Shown: positions 5,467 to 18,948 of the stretch, piece by piece
Position numbering within the stretch: the first letter of the stretch is position 1
How the letters are laid out: each line of letters begins with the position of its first letter
From: Terriglobia bacterium
Lineage (GTDB): Bacteria > Acidobacteriota > Terriglobia > Versatilivoradales > Versatilivoraceae
Reading direction: 5' to 3'
DNA: 47,573 nt
Assembly (NCBI GenBank): GCA_035541995.1
Contig: DATKMG010000802.1
Coordinates: 1-47,573, forward strand
Program-made: the position numbers and the translations under genes
Notes under the pieces: generated by a model
What the model saw: the letters and a program-made list of their open reading frames with translations, nothing else
Told to the model about the DNA's origin: nothing
The model's database searches: none

Positions 5467-5633
5467 CTTAAGTATTCCTAAACCATCTGGTATATTTAGT
5501 GGAAAAGGGACTTCCGTAAATCGAATGAGATGATGGAAGGAGTCCTGGGTCTCGGGCTTGATGACGTATTTTCTGAAACAAAGGGCGGGTAGCACATGTT
5601 AGGGATGTTAATTTTAATCGTGGAGGAATGTTT

Positions 5634-5867
5634 TTGCTCACTATTCGACTAACCCGAATGGGTACAAAGAAGAAGCCAGCTTACCGGGTTGTGGTTATCG
5701 AGAAGTCCAAGGCGCGGGACGGCAGGTTCCTTGAGGTCTTGGGACACTATAATCCGAAACGGGATGGAACGGTGGTCGATCTGAAGAAAGAAAAATACGA
5801 CTATTGGATTTCCAAAGGGGCACAACCCAGTGAGACGGTAAGGAGTCTTGTGAGAAAAGTCAGCTAA
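5634..5867 (+). CDS. rpsP: 30S ribosomal protein S16
   Basis: A TTG start at 5634 gives MLTIRLTRMGTKKKPAYRVVV, colinear with the canonical S16 N-terminus. GGAGGA (5622-5627) lies 6 nt upstream. The ATG at 5628 in the ORF track abuts the RBS and is less likely. Confidence 0.93.
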   Translation: MLTIRLTRMGTKKKPAYRVVVIEKSKARDGRFLEVLGHYNPKRDGTVVDLKKEKYDYWISKGAQPSETVRSLVRKVS

Positions 5868-5948
5868 TCGACGCACGCAGCTGCTTCCTGCCAAGCGGAT
5901 TCTCAACCCTTCATCACGCTTTGAACTGACCATCACCTGGAGGTGGCT

Positions 5949-6179
5949 ATGAAAGAGCTAATTGAACAGATTGCGAAAGCGCTGGTGGACAATCCTGATC
6001 AAGTCTCGGTCAGACCGATCGAAGGTGAGCAGACCACTGTTCTTGAGCTGAGAGTGGCCCAGAGTGATTTGGGAAAAGTAATTGGCAAGCAGGGGCGAAC
6101 AGCACGCTCGATCAGAACCATCCTCGGTGCAGCGGGAATGAAGCTAAAGAAGCGTTTTACCTTGGAGATTCTGGAGTAA
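5949..6179 (+). CDS. KH-domain RNA-binding protein (UPF0109/YlqC-like)
   Basis: The GxxG KH motif [13 protein letters not shown] is present, and the gene holds the conserved position between rpsP and rimM. GGAGG (5939-5943) lies 5 nt before the ATG at 5949. Confidence 0.85.
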
Positions 6180-6187
6180 TTAGGACA

Positions 6188-6712
6188 TTGGCCGGACCCC
6201 GGTATCTCTCTATTGCCAAAATCCTCCGGAGCAGAGGTAACCGGGGCGAAGTCACAGCTGAAATACTCACGGACTTTCCGAAGCGCTTCGAGATCCTCAA
6301 ATCCCAAGAAATCTCACTCTGGAAGGAAAACGCACATCCGTTTCACCTAACCCTTGAGTCCTACTGGTTCCATAGAAACAGGATAATCCTGAAATTCCAT
6401 GGAGTAAGTTCGATCTCAGACGCTGAAGCTCTGCGAGACTATGAACTTCAGATTCCACGCGACGAGGCAGTTTCGCTCCCGAAAGGAGCTTACTTCCAAT
6501 TCGATCTCTTGGGATGCGCTGTGAAGGACCCCAGCGGCACCACTTACGGTGAGGTAAAGGAGGTAATCGAGCAGAGATCAGGTTATCTTCTGAAGGTCGA
6601 GTCGAAGGAGCGAGAGATCCTGATTCCGTTTGCGGAGGAGTGGGTGGTTCGAATCGACATTGAGGCCAAGGAACTCGTCCTCAACCTCCCAGAGGGGCTT
6701 GTGGACATTTGA
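6188..6712 (+). CDS. rimM: 16S rRNA processing protein RimM
   Basis: The product contains RGNRGEVTAEILTDFPKRF (RimM N-domain) and a PRC-barrel-like C-terminus. The operon context is rpsP-KH-rimM-trmD, and the start is TTG. Confidence 0.88.
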   Translation: MAGPRYLSIAKILRSRGNRGEVTAEILTDFPKRFEILKSQEISLWKENAHPFHLTLESYWFHRNRIILKFHGVSSISDAEALRDYELQIPRDEAVSLPKGAYFQFDLLGCAVKDPSGTTYGEVKEVIEQRSGYLLKVESKEREILIPFAEEWVVRIDIEAKELVLNLPEGLVDI

Positions 6713-13843: not shown

Positions 13844-14036
13844 ATCGGCACCCTGACCAGATGACCTCCTGCTGCAGGAAGAATTACGTCGGAAGTAGGT
13901 TTGGGCATCGACCGGTGATAGGCTGCCAGCTATGTCCGCGCCGCCCCCTCTCGAGAGGGATATCGCAACAACCTCCGATCGATTTTCTTAACAGTGTGAT
14001 AGTTATCCGTGCCGCCTGACAAATCTGGTCTTAACT

Positions 14037-14366
14037 TCATTTTTCTAGATCCTCCACCGGTCCCACTTTTTCAATTTGCTTCTCCCACGAGTCTTGACTA
14101 TTCTTCTCTTGGTCATTTATTCCTTGGTCGGCCACCTCATGATCGGAGGCTTCCAGATCATGACATGCCCCGTTTATCATCCAATTTTGCTATAAGCTCG
14201 CCTTTGGCTGTGCTGCAAAATGAATTAAATGATCATTTCTGTCATGTTGCGAATTTGTCACGTACCACATGGCGTAGGAACGTTCCAGATTGTTATTCAT
14301 GATGGTCAATTCCTTGAAGCCAATGAATACAAGGTTCTCCCGAGCCACAATATCCTGCAGTTTCAT
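14037..14366 (-). pseudogene. Hypothetical ORF interrupted by one in-frame TAG (58 codons, stop, 50 codons); the C-terminal half is acidic
   Basis: My own translation of the minus strand gives MKLQDIVARENLVFIGFKEL...QPKASL, then TAG at 14190-14192, then QNWMINGACHDLEASDHEVADQGINDQEKNSQDSWEKQIEKVGPVEDLEK. The ORF falls below the 60 aa cut-off of the track and is divergent from radC. Confidence 0.3.
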
Positions 14367-14395
14367 ATTGGTAGGTAACTCCCCCAGGGACAGGA

Positions 14396-15127
14396 ATGAG
14401 ATTAGCTTCCGTTAAAGATTTAGGTAATGGTTCGATGAAATCATCCCTTGATAAGTACACAGACCCGGCTGGACACAGAAAACGCTTGCGAGAGCGTTTT
14501 CTGAAGGCTGGTCAAACCTCCCTCCCTGATTACGAACTGCTTGAACTGCTCTTGACCTATGCCATCCCCCGCGCCGATACAAAGCCAATAGCAAAAGCCA
14601 TTCTTGATAAGTTTGGTAGCTTCATCAATGCGCTCCAACAGCCGAGTGAACGTTTGGCAGAAATCAAGGGAGTTGGGCGGAATACGGTTTCTTTACTTCG
14701 TGTCGTTCGGGCTTGTCTGATCCGATGTATGGAGATGGAGGTTGAAAAACAATCATCCATTTCCGGGCCTGAGGACGTCTTTGCCTTTGTCCGGATGCAT
14801 TTGGGCTCCCACGCTAAGGAATGCATCTATGTTTTCTATCTCAACGAGACTAGGCAAATCGTTCACCACGCTGAGATTGTGGCGGGAACGGTTGATAGGG
14901 CACCCTTCTATCCGCGGGAAATCCTGAAACCAGCAATGTTATATAACGCAACTGGACTAATCCTAGTTCATAACCATCCCGAAGGCCAGCCCGCCCCTTC
15001 TGACCAGGATTTTGAAATGACGAGGAAGCTGGAGGACATTGCAGCCCTTCTTGGTATCAAATTACTGGACCATTTGATTGTGACACCACAGCAGGCGTAC
15101 AGCATTAAGACGGGCAAGCTCTTATGA
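14396..15127 (+). CDS. radC: RadC-like JAB-domain protein (HhH plus JAB/MPN metalloenzyme fold)
   Basis: The HhH motif is LAEIKGVG and the JAB motif is HNHPEGQPAPSDQD. The start may instead be the ATG at 14435. The stop overlaps the next ATG (ATGA at 15124-15127). Confidence 0.88.
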   Translation: MRLASVKDLGNGSMKSSLDKYTDPAGHRKRLRERFLKAGQTSLPDYELLELLLTYAIPRADTKPIAKAILDKFGSFINALQQPSERLAEIKGVGRNTVSLLRVVRACLIRCMEMEVEKQSSISGPEDVFAFVRMHLGSHAKECIYVFYLNETRQIVHHAEIVAGTVDRAPFYPREILKPAMLYNATGLILVHNHPEGQPAPSDQDFEMTRKLEDIAALLGIKLLDHLIVTPQQAYSIKTGKLL

Positions 15128-17114
15128 GTTCCTTTGCAGATCTAAAATCCTCGTGTCCGGGAATTATCGTTCCGGGGACCCTCGCCTCAGGAGCACAAGC
15201 CGAAGAACCCGTGGCTGCCCTTGAGAGAGTGCAACTTCTAGGCGAACACGTTATCCGGTGCATTCTGGCATTTGAGGGGCTTGAAGATCGAGATGGCATC
15301 ACACAAACTGACCGGCTCAATACGCTGAGCAATCGCGGCTTACTGCCATCTACGCTTCTGCCATTCTTTCACGCCATAAACGAAACAAGTCAAACGGCGG
15401 GTATGCCGCCTGCGGCTCTCCAGATGCGAGTAGCGCTGACAGCGAAGCTTGCAGAGCGCTTGGCGACCTGGTTTGCAAAGTCCTACGGCCCGCAACTCTC
15501 AGTTACTGCAAAGTCTGCCTCTAACGCGGAGAGTGCTATCAAAGCCATCCGTGAAAGTACGTCTTCCGATGGTATCCGGCGATCAGCTCGAGAATCAGCT
15601 GCACGCCGTGCAAACACGATGCAGCTAGGCGAGGATGAAACACGGGTTCTTATCGACTTTCAGTTGCGGGCTGCGGGTTGGCAGACCGACACTTGGGCTA
15701 TTCGCCATTCCCAGGGTGCACGTCCCGAAAAGGGGAGCAACAAGGCTATAGCCGAATGGCCAACCGAGACTGGCCCTGCAGACTATGCCTTGTTTTCTGG
15801 ACTCGATTTGGTTGGCGTCGTGGAAGCCAAGAAGATGGGAAAGGATGTGATTGCCCACCTCAAGCAGAGCAAACGTTACTCGCACGGGATCACGCTGGAT
15901 GCGGAGGCCCGCTTCGTAGGAGGCCCCTGGGAGGATTACCGGGTTCCGTTCCTCTTTTCGACCAATGCCCGCCCCTATCTGGATCAACTCAAGGAAAAGT
16001 CCGGCATTTGGTTTCTTGATGCACGTTGCCCCACCAATCATCCTCGCCCGCTTCTGGGATGGTACTCGCCCGAGGAGCTTCTTGATTTGCTCCAGCAGGA
16101 CGTTTTGGCCGCGGAGGAAAGACTTGCCAACGAGCCCCTGGACTACCTTGGGCTCCGCGACTACCAGCAAAAGGCTATCCGTAGGATCGAATCTGCTCTT
16201 GACCAGGGCCAAAGTCGACTCTCGTGGCCATGGCGACCGGAACTGGGAAAACCCTCCTCGCTATTGGGCTCATCTATCGGCTGATCAAGTCCCAACGTTT
16301 TCGACGGATCTTGTTTGTGGTCGACCGTAACTCCTTGGGAGAACAAGCTGGAGACAAATTCAAAGAAATGCGCCTGGAAGAGCTGAAGACCTTTGATCAG
16401 ATTTATGATCTCAAGGAAGTGGATGATTCAGGCATCGAACCCACTACTAAGGCTAGGATTGCCACTGTACAAGGCTTAATGCACGCAATCATGTACGCTT
16501 CGGATGTCTATGAAGTTCCTAGCGTCGGGCAATTCGACTGCATCATTGTTGACGAAGCCCATCGTGGCTATACGCTAGACCGCGAACTTCAGGACGATAC
16601 GCTTCCTTACCGCGACCAGAATGATTATCTGAGCAAGTACCGCCGCGTGATCGACTATTTCGACGCGGTCAAGCTCGGGCTGACGGCCACACCAGCTCCG
16701 CACACCGTTGAGATCTTTGGCAAGCCCGTATACACCTACAGCTACCGGGAAGCTGTCATCGACGGGTGGTTGGTGGACCATGAGCCTCCACATCAGCTCG
16801 TCACACGCTTGGCCAAAGAGGGGATTAAATGGGAGAAGGGTGACACTATTCCAGTCTATGACCCGGCCACAGGGCAAATCACCAATATTGAGAATATTCC
16901 GGATGAGGTCAAGCTCGAAATCGAGCACTTCAACAAGCTTGTCCTTACCGAGAACTTTAATCGCACTGTAGCCCGCGGCGAGCTTGTCCCCCAGGAACCG
17001 GATGATGAGCCGGCTTCGGTGTTGCTTGAACGCTTACGAGAGGAAAAGGCGCGGATTGCTACGGATCAGAAAACCAAGATCATGGATGTGACCGAGTCAA
17101 TGTCTACTTGTTGA
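15124..17114 (+). pseudogene. hsdR: Type I restriction enzyme R-subunit-like nuclease/helicase, frameshifted, truncated and fused to an HsdS-like conserved helix
   Basis: The N-terminus is helical and DUF4145-like. A PD-(D/E)xK motif follows (ADYALF...VVEAKK). The frame breaks at 16219-16223 just before Walker A MATGTGKT. DEAH (VDEAH at 16548-16562) and TATP are present, but helicase motifs IV-VI are absent. The last about 46 aa (GELVPQEPDDEPASVLLERLREEKARI) match the HsdS central conserved region. Confidence 0.8.
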
Positions 17115-17170
17115 CACTCGCAAAAAGCGTGCACCCACCGCCTGGGAAGGAGAATATAATAGAGTTTCCT

Positions 17171-18238
17171 ATGGAATCTTCTCAATCACAGATTACACGC
17201 CTCGAACAGCGGCTCGGAGCTGACTGGAACTTTATTCGAGAAGCGCGAGTACGTACCCAGAAAAAACGCGATGAGTTGAGATCGGTTCTGGCTGGATTTG
17301 ATTCAGAGGACACAAGCATCGTGGTATTCGGATCATTAGCGCGAGACGAATTCACTGAAGGAAGCGATATCGACTGGACACTCCTCATCGACGGCTCCGC
17401 TGATCCCAAACATCTTGAACTAATACCTCAAATTACAGAAGTCATTAGCAAGGCCTCTGCGAAAGATCCAGGGCGTGAGGGTACATTCGGAAACATGGCA
17501 TTCAGCCATGAGTTGATACATCTAATCGGAGGCGAAGATGATACAAATCGGAACACGACTCGTCGGATATTGCTCTTGTTAGAGTCTGATGTCGTTGGCC
17601 GACCCGAGGCTTATGATCGCGTAGTTAAGAATGTTCTTCAACGTTACTTAAATGAAGATCGGGGTTTTCTTCGTGGTACGGCACAGCATCATGTCCCACG
17701 CTTTCTCTTAAATGACCTCGCGCGGTATTGGCGAACTATGGCAGTTGACTTTGCCTACAAGCAAAGAACTCGTTTTGGCAGGGGCGGAGCCATAAGAAAC
17801 ATCAAGTTGCGGATGTCCCGTAAGCTCATCTATGTTTCTGGGTTGCTGACTTGTTTTAGCTGCCAGTTGGGATTTGGGGAAGTTCTAGGTCCAATCAATT
17901 GTCACAGGACTAATGGCTCCCTCGAATGCATCGAATGCCTGCGAAGATTCTTACGGCGAACACCGCTCGAGATCCTGGCAAGTGCATTTTTGCATTTTGA
18001 GCACTTGGATGAGACTGCGCGAATGGTCGTCGATGCGTATAATGCGTTCTTGGGAATACTTTCAGACCAAAGCCTTCGAGAGCACCTCGAAAATCTTCCT
18101 CCTGATCCCGATCAATCCGACGAAACCTTCCAGAAAGCTCGGAAATTGAGTCATGTTTTCCGAGACGGGTTGCTGGAACTGTTCTTCGACGAAAAGACAG
18201 AATTGTGTCAATTGACTAAAACGTATGGAGTTTTCTAA
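17171..18238 (+). CDS. Pol-beta superfamily nucleotidyltransferase with a GlnD/GlnE-like helical substrate-binding region
   Basis: The signature is VVFGSLARDEFTEGSDIDWTLLID, with GS at 17330-17335 and DID at 17366-17374. Downstream elements TTRRILLLLESDVVG and GGAIRNIKL resemble GlnD/GlnE. The start is uncertain, either the ATG at 17171 or upstream in the ORF that opens at 17108. Confidence 0.78.
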   Translation: MESSQSQITRLEQRLGADWNFIREARVRTQKKRDELRSVLAGFDSEDTSIVVFGSLARDEFTEGSDIDWTLLIDGSADPKHLELIPQITEVISKASAKDPGREGTFGNMAFSHELIHLIGGEDDTNRNTTRRILLLLESDVVGRPEAYDRVVKNVLQRYLNEDRGFLRGTAQHHVPRFLLNDLARYWRTMAVDFAYKQRTRFGRGGAIRNIKLRMSRKLIYVSGLLTCFSCQLGFGEVLGPINCHRTNGSLECIECLRRFLRRTPLEILASAFLHFEHLDETARMVVDAYNAFLGILSDQSLREHLENLPPDPDQSDETFQKARKLSHVFRDGLLELFFDEKTELCQLTKTYGVF

Positions 18239-18948
18239 TGCGAACGATTGGTTTCTCAACTGGCGCTCTAGCCTATGCAGATTTCCGAGGTGGTGTAGGA
18301 ATGCTCCGTGGGAAGAGCATCCATGCCATTGAACTTTCTGCTTTGCGACAAAAGGAGCTCCTTCCGATGCTCCGAGGCCTTGACGAACTCGACTTGTCTC
18401 AATTCAACTATATTGCTGTTCATGCCCCAAGTGAGTTCAGCAAGGAGGACGAGAGGGAGATCGTGATGATGTTACTGACAGTCAGCCAACGGGGTTGGCC
18501 AGTCGTTCTGCATCCAGACACCATCCACGACTTCTCACTCTGGAGAGAATTGGGTAAATTGCTCTGTATTGAGAATATGGACAAACGCAAGCCGAGAGGG
18601 CGCACATCTCTTGAGCTTTCATACATCTTTAGCAGTCTGCCTGAAGCATCCTTTTGTTTCGACATCGCTCATGCGCGGCAAGTAGACAGCACAATGACTG
18701 AGGCCTACTTCATTCTTAAGGACTTCGGACCTCGACTCCGACAGCTCCATGTGAGCGAGGTGAACACGCGAAGCAAGCATGACCCCCTTTCTCTGGCATC
18801 AATTCTTGCGTTCCAGGAAGTGGCTGACCTGATTCCTGAGTATATACCCTTGATCCTTGAGACACCCGTTCCGGCCGAACAGATCGAGGCCGAAATGGAA
18901 CGGGCAAGGGAAGCATTGCCAGTACACGAACAGGCGTTTGCTTATTAA
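18238..18948 (+). CDS. Xylose-isomerase-like / endonuclease-IV-like TIM-barrel protein (AP_endonuc_2-type fold, inferred)
   Basis: The product starts IGFSTGAL. Spaced candidate metal ligands run VHAP, LHPD, IENM, FDIAHA, LHVSE, ILETP. GGAG lies 8 nt upstream of the ATG, which overlaps the NTase stop (TAATG). Confidence 0.68.
   Translation: MRTIGFSTGALAYADFRGGVGMLRGKSIHAIELSALRQKELLPMLRGLDELDLSQFNYIAVHAPSEFSKEDEREIVMMLLTVSQRGWPVVLHPDTIHDFSLWRELGKLLCIENMDKRKPRGRTSLELSYIFSSLPEASFCFDIAHARQVDSTMTEAYFILKDFGPRLRQLHVSEVNTRSKHDPLSLASILAFQEVADLIPEYIPLILETPVPAEQIEAEMERAREALPVHEQAFAY

What the first reader, a model, noticed from the sequence alone, without database searches (positions are those of the whole stretch)
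17108..18948. Orphan two-gene module: GlnD/GlnE-like nucleotidyltransferase overlapping an endonuclease-IV/xylose-isomerase-like TIM-barrel gene, located where hsdM/hsdS should be
Seen in sequence:
- Two long same-strand ORFs overlap stop to start (TAATG at 18236-18240).
- The first has the Pol-beta NTase signature hGSx10-12DhDh (VVFGSLARDEFTEGSDIDWTLLID). It continues into a helical region with elements I recall from GlnD/GlnE-type protein nucleotidylyltransferases (TTRRILLLLESDVVG; GGAIRNIKL).
- The second (236 aa) begins IGFSTGAL and carries H/H/E/D-H/H-E/E candidate metal ligands. Their order (VHAP, LHPD, IENM, FDIAHA, LHVSE, ILETP) matches endonuclease IV and xylose-isomerase-like TIM barrels.

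Established knowledge:
- Type I R-M loci frequently carry embedded defence or TA modules, for example PrrC, MNT-HEPN and AbiE-like NTases.
- MNT-type NTases neutralise their partner toxins by nucleotidylylation.

Inference:
- I know of no named defence or TA system that pairs this NTase class with an AP_endonuc_2-type TIM barrel. CBASS, Pycsar, AbiE and MNT-HEPN all use different partners.
- The pair could be a nuclease or phosphodiesterase effector controlled by nucleotidylylation.
- It could instead be an NTase that marks a target which the TIM barrel processes.
- A single hand-counted 120-nt sample (17401-17520) gave about 44% GC. Samples from neighbouring housekeeping genes gave 50-63%. 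This hints at foreign origin but is only indicative.
Basis: partly seen in the sequence, partly recalled or inferred. Interest (0 to 1): 0.8.

Follow-up and report, generated by a model that had tools for sequence, protein, structure and literature searches.

The report
Catalogued but untested candidate defence pair
The two overlapping genes are real and always travel together, but the pair is already listed in the PADLOC database as the untested phage-defence candidate PDC-M70; comparing many genomes suggests the first enzyme is the costly, possibly harmful partner and the second is the one cells always keep.

Summary
Both proteins match PADLOC models PDC-M70A and PDC-M70B full length (E 6e-141 and 2e-102). 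So the pair belongs to a candidate defence system predicted by "guilt-by-embedding" (Payne et al. 2024). I found no paper that tests it.

- **A:** a Pol-beta-fold nucleotidyltransferase with a helical domain. Its closest folds are GlnE and DrrA, but weakly (TM about 0.4).
- **B:** a confident TIM barrel (pLDDT 94). It conserves eight of the nine endonuclease IV metal ligands.
- **Pairing:** A sits directly upstream of B in 78 of 80 genome loci, and B follows A in 72 of 72 evaluable metagenome loci.
- **Cassette:** DNA similarity between loci stops at the two genes and flanks vary. Several contexts are defence or toxin-antitoxin islands; here it abuts a decayed type I R-M locus.
- **Asymmetry:** A is frameshifted, truncated or absent in 20 of 75 loci where B is intact. 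B is never lost where A is intact.

This argues against "B toxin, A antitoxin". It favours A as a harmful nucleotidyl-adding enzyme and B as a protective phosphodiesterase. That mechanism is inferred and untested.

The parts
17171..18238 (+). Gene A: PDC-M70A nucleotidyltransferase, 355 aa. An alternative upstream TTG lies at 17108.
   Evidence: ORF. PADLOC PDC-M70A E 6e-141 over 1-355/355. Pfam NTP_transf_2 E 3e-7 at aa 44-88. AF2 pLDDT 86. Foldseek best matches are GlnE 3k7d, DrrA 6yx5 and GlnE 1v4a.
17330..17374 (+). Catalytic NTase motif G54-S55 ... D66-I67-D68 (hG[GS]x9-13DxD).
   Evidence: Read directly from the sequence. G54, S55 and D68 are invariant and D66 is >=90% conserved in 46 homologues.
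17783..17809 (+). GGAIRNIKL motif in the helical domain (aa 205-213). It resembles GlnE 'GGIREIEF' and GlnD 'GGLRDIHT'.
   Evidence: The regex comparison places the motif about 150 aa after the catalytic motif in A. The offset is about 160 aa in GlnE and about 131 aa in GlnD. R209, N210, K212 and L213 are invariant.
18236..18240 (+). TAATG stop/start overlap (1 nt), indicating translational coupling of A and B.
   Evidence: The junction is T[GA]ATG in 45 of 59 evaluable homologous loci.
18238..18948 (+). Gene B: PDC-M70B, a xylose-isomerase-like TIM barrel (endonuclease IV / CbiR-like metallo-phosphodiesterase candidate), 236 aa.
   Evidence: PADLOC PDC-M70B E 2e-102. AF2 pLDDT 94 with eight beta/alpha units. 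Foldseek PDB matches PA2260, UlaE, Art22, MbnB, Endo IV 3aam and UVDE. Weak NCBIfam CbiR hit, E 8e-5, below cutoff.
18421..18861 (+). Span carrying B's candidate metal ligands: H62, H92, E112, D142, H145, H171, E174, H181 and E208, all at the C-terminal ends of beta strands.
   Evidence: All are invariant in 45 homologues. HMM and hhalign mapping to E. coli Nfo gives E145=E112, D179=D142, H182=H145, H216=H171, H231=H181 and E261=E208. The 13-residue His/acidic set checked (these nine plus E32, D94, D115 and D182) is identical in 75 of 81 sequences.
15124..17114 (+). Decayed type I restriction gene. hsdR is split into two ORFs (15124-16284 and 16224-17114), truncated at about aa 687 of 1123, and fused to an HsdS C-terminal tail (about 16974-17078). 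This is context, not part of the cassette.
   Evidence: NCBIfam PRK11448 model positions 200-435 and 438-687. PADLOC REase_I plus Specificity_I hits at aa 251-285 of the second ORF. Tail sequence GELVPQEPDDEPASVLLERLREEK.
14396..15127 (+). RadC-like JAB-domain gene whose end overlaps the start of the hsdR relic. This is context.
   Evidence: Pfam RadC E 1e-36. NCBIfam PRK00024 193.5 bits, above its cutoff of 180.

Best explanation
This is a member of the PADLOC candidate defence system PDC-M70. It is a self-contained, horizontally mobile cassette of two translationally coupled enzymes.

**Shown**
- A is a catalytically intact Pol-beta-fold nucleotidyltransferase with a GlnE/DrrA-like helical domain.
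- B is a TIM-barrel enzyme with an endonuclease-IV-type multi-metal site, so phosphodiester hydrolysis is the expected chemistry.
- An intact A is always accompanied by B. B often persists without a functional A.

**Inferred**
- A is the active and costly partner. It transfers a nucleotidyl group (most likely AMP) onto a macromolecular target, either a protein side chain as GlnE and DrrA do, or a nucleic-acid end.
- B is the protective partner. It hydrolyses that phosphodiester adduct.
- Together they form a writer/eraser, toxin/enzymatic-antidote pair with the logic of DarT-DarG, or of restriction endonuclease plus methyltransferase.
- During phage infection the balance would tip towards A. 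Growth or phage replication would be blocked (abortive-infection-type defence).
For: - **Identity as PDC-M70:** both proteins match the models full length. The candidate derives from embedding in BREX, DISARM or type I R-M loci.
- **Obligate pairing:** A is directly upstream of B in 78 of 80 B-anchored genome loci. B is intact downstream of A in 72 of 72 evaluable A-anchored metagenome loci. Two of these (L110, L111) have an IS element inserted exactly at the junction, with B retained. The 1-nt overlap T[GA]ATG occurs in 45 of 59 loci.
- **Cassette limits and mobility:** DNA similarity between loci is confined to 17233-18923. Flanking genes are not conserved. The pair occurs on conjugative rhizobial plasmids and in several phyla.
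- **Defence or conflict context:**
  - this window, beside a type I R-M relic;
  - a Mesorhizobium plasmid with SIR2+ATPase, a RecB-like nuclease and ImmA/IrrE;
  - a Sinorhizobium plasmid with AbiEii;
  - McrBC;
  - MNT-HEPN, HEPN_Swt1 and PIN genes;
  - an Eco57I/MmeI-type methyltransferase, a PLD-helicase, an McrBC fragment, RelE and an SRA-domain gene;
  - about 11 of 147 immediate neighbours hit PADLOC models at E<=1e-8.
- **Enzymology:**
  - A keeps G54, S55, D66, D68 and candidate third carboxylates E103 and E138.
  - Its best fold matches are the protein-AMPylating enzymes GlnE and DrrA.
  - B keeps equivalents of Nfo E145, D179, H182, H216, H231 and E261. Its H62 and H92 motifs match Nfo H69 and H109.
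  - B's closest curated sequence family is the phosphodiesterase CbiR.
- **Asymmetric decay:** A is frameshifted, nonsense-mutated, truncated or absent in 20 of 75 evaluable loci. Disruption positions differ between loci, and 12 of the 20 are not long-read assemblies. B in those loci keeps all ligands and scores as well as elsewhere (mean 377 vs 380 bits, p=0.72). The reverse case is 0 of 72 (Fisher p=5e-7).
- **Precedent:** a metallo-phosphodiesterase nuclease, RNase Z, acts as a protein deAMPylase (abstract of PMC12663964, seen).
Against: - No experiment exists for PDC-M70 in any paper I could find.
- The asymmetry compares two different collections, species genomes/MAGs against metagenome contigs. 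Each set was pre-selected for an intact anchor gene.
- B stays intact even where A has five in-frame stops (L024), and B homologues occur alone (L068; viral contig L090 next to a UDG-PolB). B therefore has value of its own and need not be only an antidote.
- A distant A homologue is the sole cargo of a 4.5-kb E. coli plasmid with no B.
- A's fold matches are weak (E 4e-3, TM 0.41). Neither the target of A nor the substrate of B is known.
- Most immediate neighbours in Acidobacteriota are ordinary genes, so defence association is moderate.
Confidence: 0.35

Rival explanations
1. Effector plus accessory. B is the working enzyme by itself: an endonuclease-IV-like nuclease or 3'-diesterase acting on phage or damaged DNA. 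A is a dispensable, costly sensor or regulator that modifies B or a target to boost or gate the response.
For: B persists intact, with unreduced profile scores, where A is a pseudogene. B homologues occur without A. One sits in a phage replication module beside a UDG-fused family B polymerase and a clamp-loader-like ATPase. B has the Endo IV-type ligand set.
Against: This model does not explain why an intact A is never found without B (0 of 72). B is 49 residues shorter than Nfo, and the N-terminal half, which holds DNA-contacting loops in Nfo, does not align. Foldseek ranks sugar-phosphate epimerases above Endo IV. The window's B gets no Pfam AP_endonuc_2 hit.
Confidence: 0.2
2. B is a toxic nuclease or phosphodiesterase kept inactive by A through nucleotidylylation, as in a type VII toxin-antitoxin system such as MntA-HepT.
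For: The NTase-first gene order and translational coupling resemble MNT-HEPN operons. A shows weak MntA and MNT-like profile hits over the NTase core.
Against: In 20 of 75 loci A is disrupted or absent while B is intact with every candidate ligand. That should be lethal if B were a toxin neutralised only by A. A is 355 aa with a large helical domain, not a minimal MNT. The MntA model scores 20.8 bits against a cutoff of 60.
Confidence: 0.1
3. Not defence. The pair is an accessory metabolic, detoxification or resistance cassette. A nucleotidylylates a small molecule, as aminoglycoside or lincosamide nucleotidyltransferases do. B isomerises or hydrolyses a sugar-phosphate or nucleotide-linked product.
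For: Foldseek also lists the ANT(9), AadA and ANT(4') aminoglycoside nucleotidyltransferases for A. B's top fold hits are sugar-phosphate isomerases and epimerases. A distant A homologue sits next to a histidine phosphatase inside a glycosyltransferase/MFS cluster. Most neighbours in soil Acidobacteriota are ordinary genes. The taxa are soil bacteria, where resistance cassettes are common.
Against: The ANT matches are poor (TM 0.23-0.26, rmsd about 16 A) compared with GlnE and DrrA. B carries the extra His ligands of the Endo IV-type site rather than only the E-D-H-E set of sugar isomerases. No conserved metabolic neighbour exists. The pair recurs in defence and toxin-antitoxin islands. Frequent pseudogenisation of A alone is unusual for a two-step pathway.
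Confidence: 0.2
4. Nucleotide-signal system. A synthesises a nucleotide or short oligonucleotide messenger, as Hailong HalB or the CBASS CD-NTases do. B binds or degrades it.
For: HalB appears among A's weak fold matches. NTase-based signalling is common in defence systems (general knowledge).
Against: PADLOC shows no CD-NTase or other signalling-cyclase hit for A. HalB matches are weaker than GlnE and DrrA (prob 0.3-0.5, TM 0.2). B has no recognisable sensor or effector domain beyond the catalytic barrel. A degrader alone would leave the system without an effector.
Confidence: 0.07

Closest known systems
PADLOC phage defence candidate PDC-M70 (Payne, Hughes, Fineran, Jackson; bioRxiv 10.1101/2024.01.29.577857; cassette CAS_00217, FAM_01459>>FAM_02243)
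   Same: Both proteins match the two models end to end (E 6e-141 and 2e-102). They are in the same order and on the same strand. They lie beside a type I R-M locus, which is the context from which the candidate was derived.
   Different: Nothing differs at family level. The R-M locus here is a decayed relic, so the pair is adjacent rather than embedded. PDC-M70 is only a computational candidate (32 RefSeq instances). The source paper gives no tested phenotype and no description of its domains or mechanism.
DarT-DarG (ADP-ribosyltransferase toxin plus macrodomain hydrolase antitoxin, an anti-phage toxin-antitoxin system; from my own knowledge)
   Same: The proposed logic is the same. A transferase writes a nucleotide-derived adduct and an adjacent hydrolase erases it. 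The writer gene comes first. The system would be defence-associated.
   Different: The folds and chemistry are unrelated: Pol-beta NTase against ART, and TIM-barrel metalloenzyme against macrodomain. The resemblance is inferred from gene-decay asymmetry, not tested.
MntA-HepT / MNT-HEPN type VII toxin-antitoxin systems
   Same: A Pol-beta-fold NTase is encoded immediately upstream of its partner. The regulatory principle is nucleotidylylation.
   Different: A is 355 aa with a GlnE-like helical domain, not a roughly 100-140 aa minimal NTase. The partner is a TIM barrel, not a HEPN RNase. Natural loss of A with B intact contradicts an antitoxin role for A.
GlnE / GlnD protein nucleotidyltransferases and Legionella DrrA (SidM)
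   Same: These are the best fold matches for A. The architecture is shared: an NTase core followed by a helical domain, with a GG-x-R-[DEN]-I motif at a similar offset. GlnD also pairs a writer (NTase) with a phosphohydrolase eraser (HD domain); this last point is from my own knowledge.
   Different: Sequence-profile similarity is limited to the catalytic core. There are no GlnE or GlnD_UR_UTase Pfam hits and no PII, ACT or HD modules. Foldseek E is only 4e-3 with TM about 0.4.
Endonuclease IV (Nfo), UVDE and the cobamide phosphodiesterase CbiR (AP_endonuc_2 / xylose-isomerase-like TIM barrels)
   Same: B is a TIM barrel. It has equivalents of eight of Nfo's nine metal ligands. CbiR gives the best curated-family hit. 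Endo IV 3aam and UVDE are among the fold hits.
   Different: B is 236 aa against 285 for Nfo. Nfo D229 is replaced by Ser179. The N-terminal half does not align by HMM. B scores below the curated thresholds of every such family. The same ligand pattern also occurs in the MbnB-type iron oxidases, which are also among the fold hits.

Membership tests
PADLOC PDC-M70 (candidate system) | Protein matching model PDC-M70A (PDLC04778). | tested here: met
   E 6.2e-141, 467.8 bits, residues 1-355 against model 1-355/355.
PADLOC PDC-M70 (candidate system) | Adjacent same-strand protein matching model PDC-M70B (PDLC04779). | tested here: met
   E 2.1e-102, 339.6 bits, residues 1-230 against model 1-230/238. 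The genes overlap by 1 nt.
PADLOC PDC-M70 (candidate system) | Association with BREX, DISARM or type I R-M loci (basis of the prediction). | tested here: met
   The pair lies immediately 3' of an hsdR/hsdS relic. Type I methyltransferases occur within two genes in about 3 of 80 related loci. Other defence contexts appear.
PADLOC PDC-M70 (candidate system) | Demonstrated anti-phage activity. | not testable with these tools
   No paper in the searchable library reports a test.
Endonuclease IV (Nfo) family | TIM-barrel fold. | tested here: met
   AF2 pLDDT 94 with eight beta/alpha units. Foldseek hits include T. thermophilus Endo IV 3aam (E 4.7e-6, TM 0.65) and UVDE.
Endonuclease IV (Nfo) family | Nine metal ligands: H69, H109, E145, D179, H182, H216, D229, H231 and E261 (E. 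coli numbering; list from my own knowledge, residue identities confirmed). | tested here: inconclusive
   Six ligands align to invariant B residues (E112, D142, H145, H171, H181, E208). D229 aligns to Ser179. H69 and H109 are matched only by motif (VHAP and LHPD against PHD and FHPG), because the N-terminal half is not aligned.
Endonuclease IV (Nfo) family | Curated family-model score (Pfam AP_endonuc_2 PF01261 or an NCBIfam nfo model). | tested here: not met
   No Pfam family at E<=0.1 for the window protein. The only NCBIfam hit is CbiR at 22.2 bits against a cutoff of 105. Some homologues do carry PF01261.
GlnE / GlnD protein nucleotidyltransferases | Pol-beta NTase catalytic motif hG[GS]x9-13DxD. 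| tested here: met
   G54-S55 ... D66-I-D68 is conserved. It aligns to the GlnD and GlnE motifs.
GlnE / GlnD protein nucleotidyltransferases | Family-specific helical domain (Pfam GlnE PF03710 / GlnD_UR_UTase PF08335). | tested here: not met
   No such Pfam hit at E<=0.1. hhalign aligns only the core (E 0.011-0.16). Only a short shared motif and weak fold similarity (E 4e-3, TM 0.41) support a relationship.
MntA-HepT type VII toxin-antitoxin | Minimal MNT antitoxin passing the MntA model, paired with a HEPN toxin. | tested here: not met
   MntA_antitoxin scores 20.8 bits against a cutoff of 60. The partner is a TIM barrel with no HEPN hit.
CBASS / other NTase signalling systems | CD-NTase (or HalB-like) synthase plus a signal-activated effector. 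| tested here: not met
   No CD-NTase model among the PADLOC hits for A. HalB fold matches are weak (prob 0.3-0.5, TM 0.2).

The most novel reading that the evidence does not exclude
PDC-M70 is a real anti-phage system of a new mechanistic type. A GlnE/DrrA-like nucleotidyltransferase poisons an essential host or phage macromolecule by nucleotidylylation. A dedicated endonuclease-IV-fold metallo-phosphodiesterase erases the mark. This would be the first toxin/enzymatic-antidote pair built on reversible nucleotidylylation, and a new (de-nucleotidylylase) activity for the AP_endonuc_2 TIM-barrel superfamily.
Probability: 0.25. Interest if true: 0.75.

Novelty: new member of a known kind. Interest (0 to 1): 0.5.

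Why it matters
The pair is widespread. B relatives occur in 385 of about 185,600 species genomes, and each protein has thousands of metagenomic clusters, mostly from soil Acidobacteriota. Yet it has no tested function.

If the writer/eraser reading is right, three things follow:
- Reversible nucleotidylylation would join ADP-ribosylation (DarTG) as a currency of bacterial conflict systems.
- The endonuclease IV fold would gain a new activity.
- A simple genomic signature, asymmetric decay of one partner, could be used to tell which gene of an uncharacterised candidate pair is the dangerous one.

If the reading is wrong, the value is modest: one more instance of a catalogued candidate.

Tried and rejected
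- **Sequence search of PDB with profiles of A and B:** nothing useful.
- **hhalign of A against E. coli GlnE and GlnD:** only the catalytic core aligns, so family membership is rejected.
- **BFVD fold search for A:** uninformative.
- **Phage collections:** no match in INPHARED and one contig in IMG/VR, so the pair is not phage-borne.
- **Rfam, tRNA, repeat, promoter and terminator scans around 13-20 kb:** no RNA element, island boundary or operator.
- **Literature searches:** PDC-M70 and NTase + TIM-barrel + anti-phage term combinations returned no paper describing this pair. Papers that tested other PDCs did not include M70.
- **CBASS, MNT-HEPN and AbiE membership:** rejected on model scores.
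- **GC as evidence of foreign origin:** real but mild, so not relied on.
- **216-aa B variants in the protein database:** gene-caller artefacts that avoid the overlap, not truncations.
- **My first integrity classifiers:** they miscounted cases such as L004. I replaced them with an open-frame test anchored at A's stop codon and checked it on individual loci.

Full report
**Observation**

The two ORFs exist as described. Gene A runs from ATG 17171 (an upstream TTG lies at 17108) to 18238 and encodes 355 aa. Gene B runs 18238-18948 and encodes 236 aa. A's TAA stop and B's ATG share one base (TAATG, 18236-18240). The hand-counted GC of 17401-17520 is exactly 44.2%. At whole-gene level the dip is mild. 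A has 47.5% GC (GC3 46%) and B 50.8% (GC3 54%). Flanking genes have GC3 of 56-64%, and the window as a whole is 52.1% GC.

**What it is**

A scan against PADLOC-DB v2 gave full-length matches to a two-gene candidate system. A matches PDC-M70A (E 6e-141, 1-355/355) and B matches PDC-M70B (E 2e-102, 1-230/238).

PDC systems come from the "guilt-by-embedding" study of Payne et al. (bioRxiv 10.1101/2024.01.29.577857). That study curated gene cassettes nested in BREX, DISARM or type I R-M loci into 145 candidates. Its Table S8 lists PDC-M70 as cassette CAS_00217, FAM_01459>>FAM_02243, with 32 RefSeq instances. The main text does not describe or test it. I found no other paper that names or tests it.

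The system is, however, only a computational candidate.

**Protein A**

- Pfam sees only the NTP_transf_2 core at aa 44-88 (E 3e-7), with a weak DUF294 hit.
- The family is large, with 3866 clusters at E<=1e-3, and strongly conserved. G54, S55, R58, D68, E103, E138 and long stretches of the helical domain are invariant in 46 sequences.
- AlphaFold2 gives pLDDT 86: an NTase sheet followed by a helical domain.
- The best PDB fold matches are the C- and N-terminal adenylyltransferase domains of E. coli GlnE (3k7d, 1v4a) and Legionella DrrA (6yx5). All three are protein-AMPylating enzymes. The scores are weak (E 4e-3 to 1e-2, TM about 0.4). Aminoglycoside nucleotidyltransferases, Hailong HalB and MntA follow with poorer superpositions.
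- Profile comparison with GlnE and GlnD aligns only the catalytic core.
GlnE has NIKLGAGGIREIEF, GlnD has DIKSSPGGLRDIHT and A has RFGRGGAIRNIKL. The three motifs lie about 160, 131 and 151 residues after the catalytic motif.

I conclude that A has a GlnE/DrrA-like architecture but is not a member of those families.

**Protein B**

- The window protein has no Pfam hit, though some homologues carry PF01261 AP_endonuc_2.
- NCBIfam's only hit is the cobamide phosphodiesterase CbiR, at E 8e-5 and well below its cutoff.
- AlphaFold2 gives a confident eight-stranded beta/alpha barrel (pLDDT 94).
- Foldseek places it in the xylose-isomerase-like superfamily. Hits include PA2260, UlaE, Art22, MbnB, Endo IV 3aam and UVDE (E 2e-8 to 2e-5, TM 0.55-0.70).
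- I mapped B's invariant His and acidic residues onto E. coli Nfo, after confirming that the nine known ligand positions hold the expected residues. HMM and hhalign alignments give E112=E145, D142=D179, H145=H182, H171=H216, H181=H231 and E208=E261. Ser179 aligns to D229.
- H62 (VHAP) and H92 (LHPD) resemble Nfo H69 (PHD) and H109 (FHPG) by motif and strand position only.

That makes eight of nine Endo IV ligands. It is more than the E-D-H-E set of sugar isomerases, and it points to phosphodiester chemistry. MbnB-type iron oxidases share a similar ligand set, so the assignment is not unique. The 13-residue His/acidic set checked is identical in 75 of 81 family members.

**Synteny, mobility and context**

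- *B-anchored scan.* A scan of one genome per species found 385 genomes with a B relative. The best 80 are mostly Acidobacteriota, with single Rhodospirillales, Lentisphaeria, Planctomycetota and Polyangia MAGs. A lies directly upstream of B in 78 of the 80; one exception is at a contig edge. The junction is T[GA]ATG in 45 of 59 loci.
- *A-anchored scan.* The reciprocal scan of metagenome contigs found at least 568 loci. In the best 80, B is intact downstream in all 72 evaluable cases. Two of these have an IS element inserted exactly between A and B.
- *Cassette limits.* Nucleotide similarity between loci stops at the ends of the two genes (17233-18923). Flanking genes are not conserved: the largest neighbour family has 8 proteins in 6 loci. 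No sugar, inositol or nitrogen operon recurs.
- *Neighbours in Acidobacteriota.* Immediate neighbours are mostly ordinary genes. About 11 of 147 hit PADLOC models at E<=1e-8, including type III REase, HmaA, type I MTase, LmuB, ThsB and MkoA/C. Resolvases and integrases also occur. Type I MTases and MNT-like genes appear one gene further out.
- *Annotated or Pfam-labelled contexts.* These are more telling.
  - A conjugative Mesorhizobium plasmid carries the pair among SIR2+ATPase, a RecB-like nuclease, IS630, ThiF, HTH+ImmA/IrrE, an exonuclease and a DEAD helicase.
  - A Sinorhizobium plasmid places it after AbiEii.
  - Metagenome contigs place it between MNT-HEPN and DUF5343+HEPN_Swt1 or PIN genes.
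  - One contig places it between a 1452-aa Eco57I/MmeI-type methyltransferase with a PLD-helicase on one side and an McrBC fragment, RelE/MqsA, an SRA-domain gene, PIN and MNT-HEPN on the other.
  - Another places it after P2-like prophage tail genes.
  - Another places it downstream of McrBC.
- *This window.* The pair follows a RadC-like gene and a type I hsdR. The hsdR is frameshifted near 16220, truncated at about residue 687 of 1123, and fused to an HsdS tail. The R-M system has decayed while the pair stayed intact.
- *Phages.* The pair is essentially absent from phages.

**A natural-genetics test of the mechanism**

In the B-anchored set I measured the open reading frame that ends at B's start. 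It covers fewer than 310 A codons in 19 of 75 evaluable loci, and A is absent in one more. Individual cases show genuine frameshifts between the two halves of A (L018, L038, L042, L057). Others have in-frame stops: one each in L010 and L052, and five in L024. Others are truncations, such as L064, and L066 where McrBC lies upstream.

Twelve of the 20 come from assemblies that are not long-read, so sequencing error is an unlikely general cause. In all these loci B is full length with every candidate ligand. Its profile score equals that of loci with intact A (mean 377 vs 380 bits, Mann-Whitney p=0.72).

In the other direction, B is never disrupted when A is intact (0 of 72; Fisher p=5e-7).

There are caveats. 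The two directions use different collections, and each set was ranked on the anchor protein.

Taken at face value, the pattern "A never without B, B often without A" is that of a harmful activity and its protective partner. Restriction enzymes with methyltransferases and toxins with orphan antitoxins show the same pattern. It is the opposite of what an MntA-HepT-like arrangement predicts.

**Most likely mechanism**

The shown facts are these: two catalytically intact enzymes, an obligate and translationally coupled pair, mobility, moderate defence association, and asymmetric decay.

The inference is as follows. A transfers a nucleotidyl group to a macromolecule. The target would be a protein hydroxyl by analogy with GlnE and DrrA, or possibly a nucleic-acid end. 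This is costly or toxic. B hydrolyses the resulting phosphodiester. Together they form a writer/eraser pair with DarT-DarG-like logic that could act as an abortive-infection defence.

A metallo-phosphodiesterase nuclease acting as a protein deAMPylase has precedent in RNase Z (PMC12663964).

Distant A homologues sit next to other phospho-adduct hydrolases, which fits the theme but is anecdotal. One is beside a histidine phosphatase in Rhizobium. Another is beside a convergent HIT protein and a type I R-M locus in Mycobacterium.

I put this model at about 0.35.

**Rivals**

- B as a stand-alone DNA-acting enzyme with A as an accessory: 0.2. This is supported by solo B homologues, including one beside a UDG-fused PolB in a 193-kb viral contig.
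- A non-defence small-molecule cassette: 0.2.
- A nucleotide-signal system: 0.07.

**Novelty and verdict**

The finding is a real, correctly described gene pair, and the fold calls were good. It is an additional member of an already catalogued candidate (PDC-M70), not a previously unseen pairing. Its function remains untested.

This analysis adds three things: the ligand mapping, the strict reciprocal synteny, and the decay asymmetry, which gives a directional and testable mechanism. Interest is moderate at 0.5. It would be high for anyone choosing PADLOC candidates to characterise, but this is not a discovery of a new kind of system.

Noticed in passing
window 15124-17114: The type I restriction gene hsdR (PRK11448 type) is a pseudogene. 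It has a frameshift near 16220 and is truncated at about residue 687 of 1123. It is fused in frame to the C-terminal tail of a specificity subunit (GELVPQEPDDEPASVLLERLREEK, about 16974-17078). This implies a deletion that removed the 3' half of hsdR, all of hsdM and most of hsdS.
   Followed up: partly
window 14396-15127: A RadC-like JAB-domain gene (above the NCBIfam cutoff) ends with a 4-nt overlap onto the start of the hsdR relic. It has low GC (48%). The 550-bp non-coding stretch upstream (13850-14395) is also low in GC and holds a palindrome at 14215-14250. This may be the left edge of the accessory region.
   Followed up: no
window 17558-17830 (A residues 130-220): This conserved part of A gives a weak PADLOC hit to Druantia DruA (DUF4338), E 2.3e-5, model positions 223-306 of 407. 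DruA may contain a related helical or NTase-associated domain.
   Followed up: no
L090 3956-8696 (IMG/VR UViG_3300027847_002834, 193 kb, 32% GC): This is the only viral contig with a B homologue (44% identity, passes Pfam AP_endonuc_2), and it lacks A. The homologue sits after a family B DNA polymerase with an N-terminal UDG domain and before a clamp-loader-like AAA ATPase. That suggests a DNA-repair or replication role for solo B-type enzymes.
   Followed up: partly
L085 711-1706 (E. coli plasmid pISHS7_5, NZ_CP092257.1, 4.5 kb): A distant A homologue (36% identity over 55% of the query, with all signature motifs) is essentially the only cargo of a small Rop-encoding plasmid. It has no TIM-barrel partner. 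An unannotated 157-aa ORF (211-684) lies just upstream.
   Followed up: partly
L111 5062-7379 (and L110): An IS element, with a DDE transposase ORF at 5469-6323, is inserted exactly at the A/B junction. It extends A's reading frame and displaces an intact B by about 2.3 kb.
   Followed up: partly
L086 4938-6633 (Rhizobium sp. BT04 plasmid) and L083 5932-7421 (Mycobacterium sp. SMC-8 plasmid): Distant A homologues (28-29% identity) pair with other phospho-adduct hydrolases. In Rhizobium, a histidine phosphatase lies directly downstream inside a glycosyltransferase/MFS cluster. In Mycobacterium, a convergent HIT-domain gene lies beside an intact type I R-M operon.
   Followed up: partly
L081 6827-7529 (Mesorhizobium plasmid pMspAR02c); two of the 80 genome loci: A frameshifted 5'-nucleotidase (PF06189) lies just upstream of the pair on the Mesorhizobium plasmid. 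NT5C-type deoxynucleotidases are immediate neighbours in two other loci. This may be an occasional third component or a coincidence.
   Followed up: no
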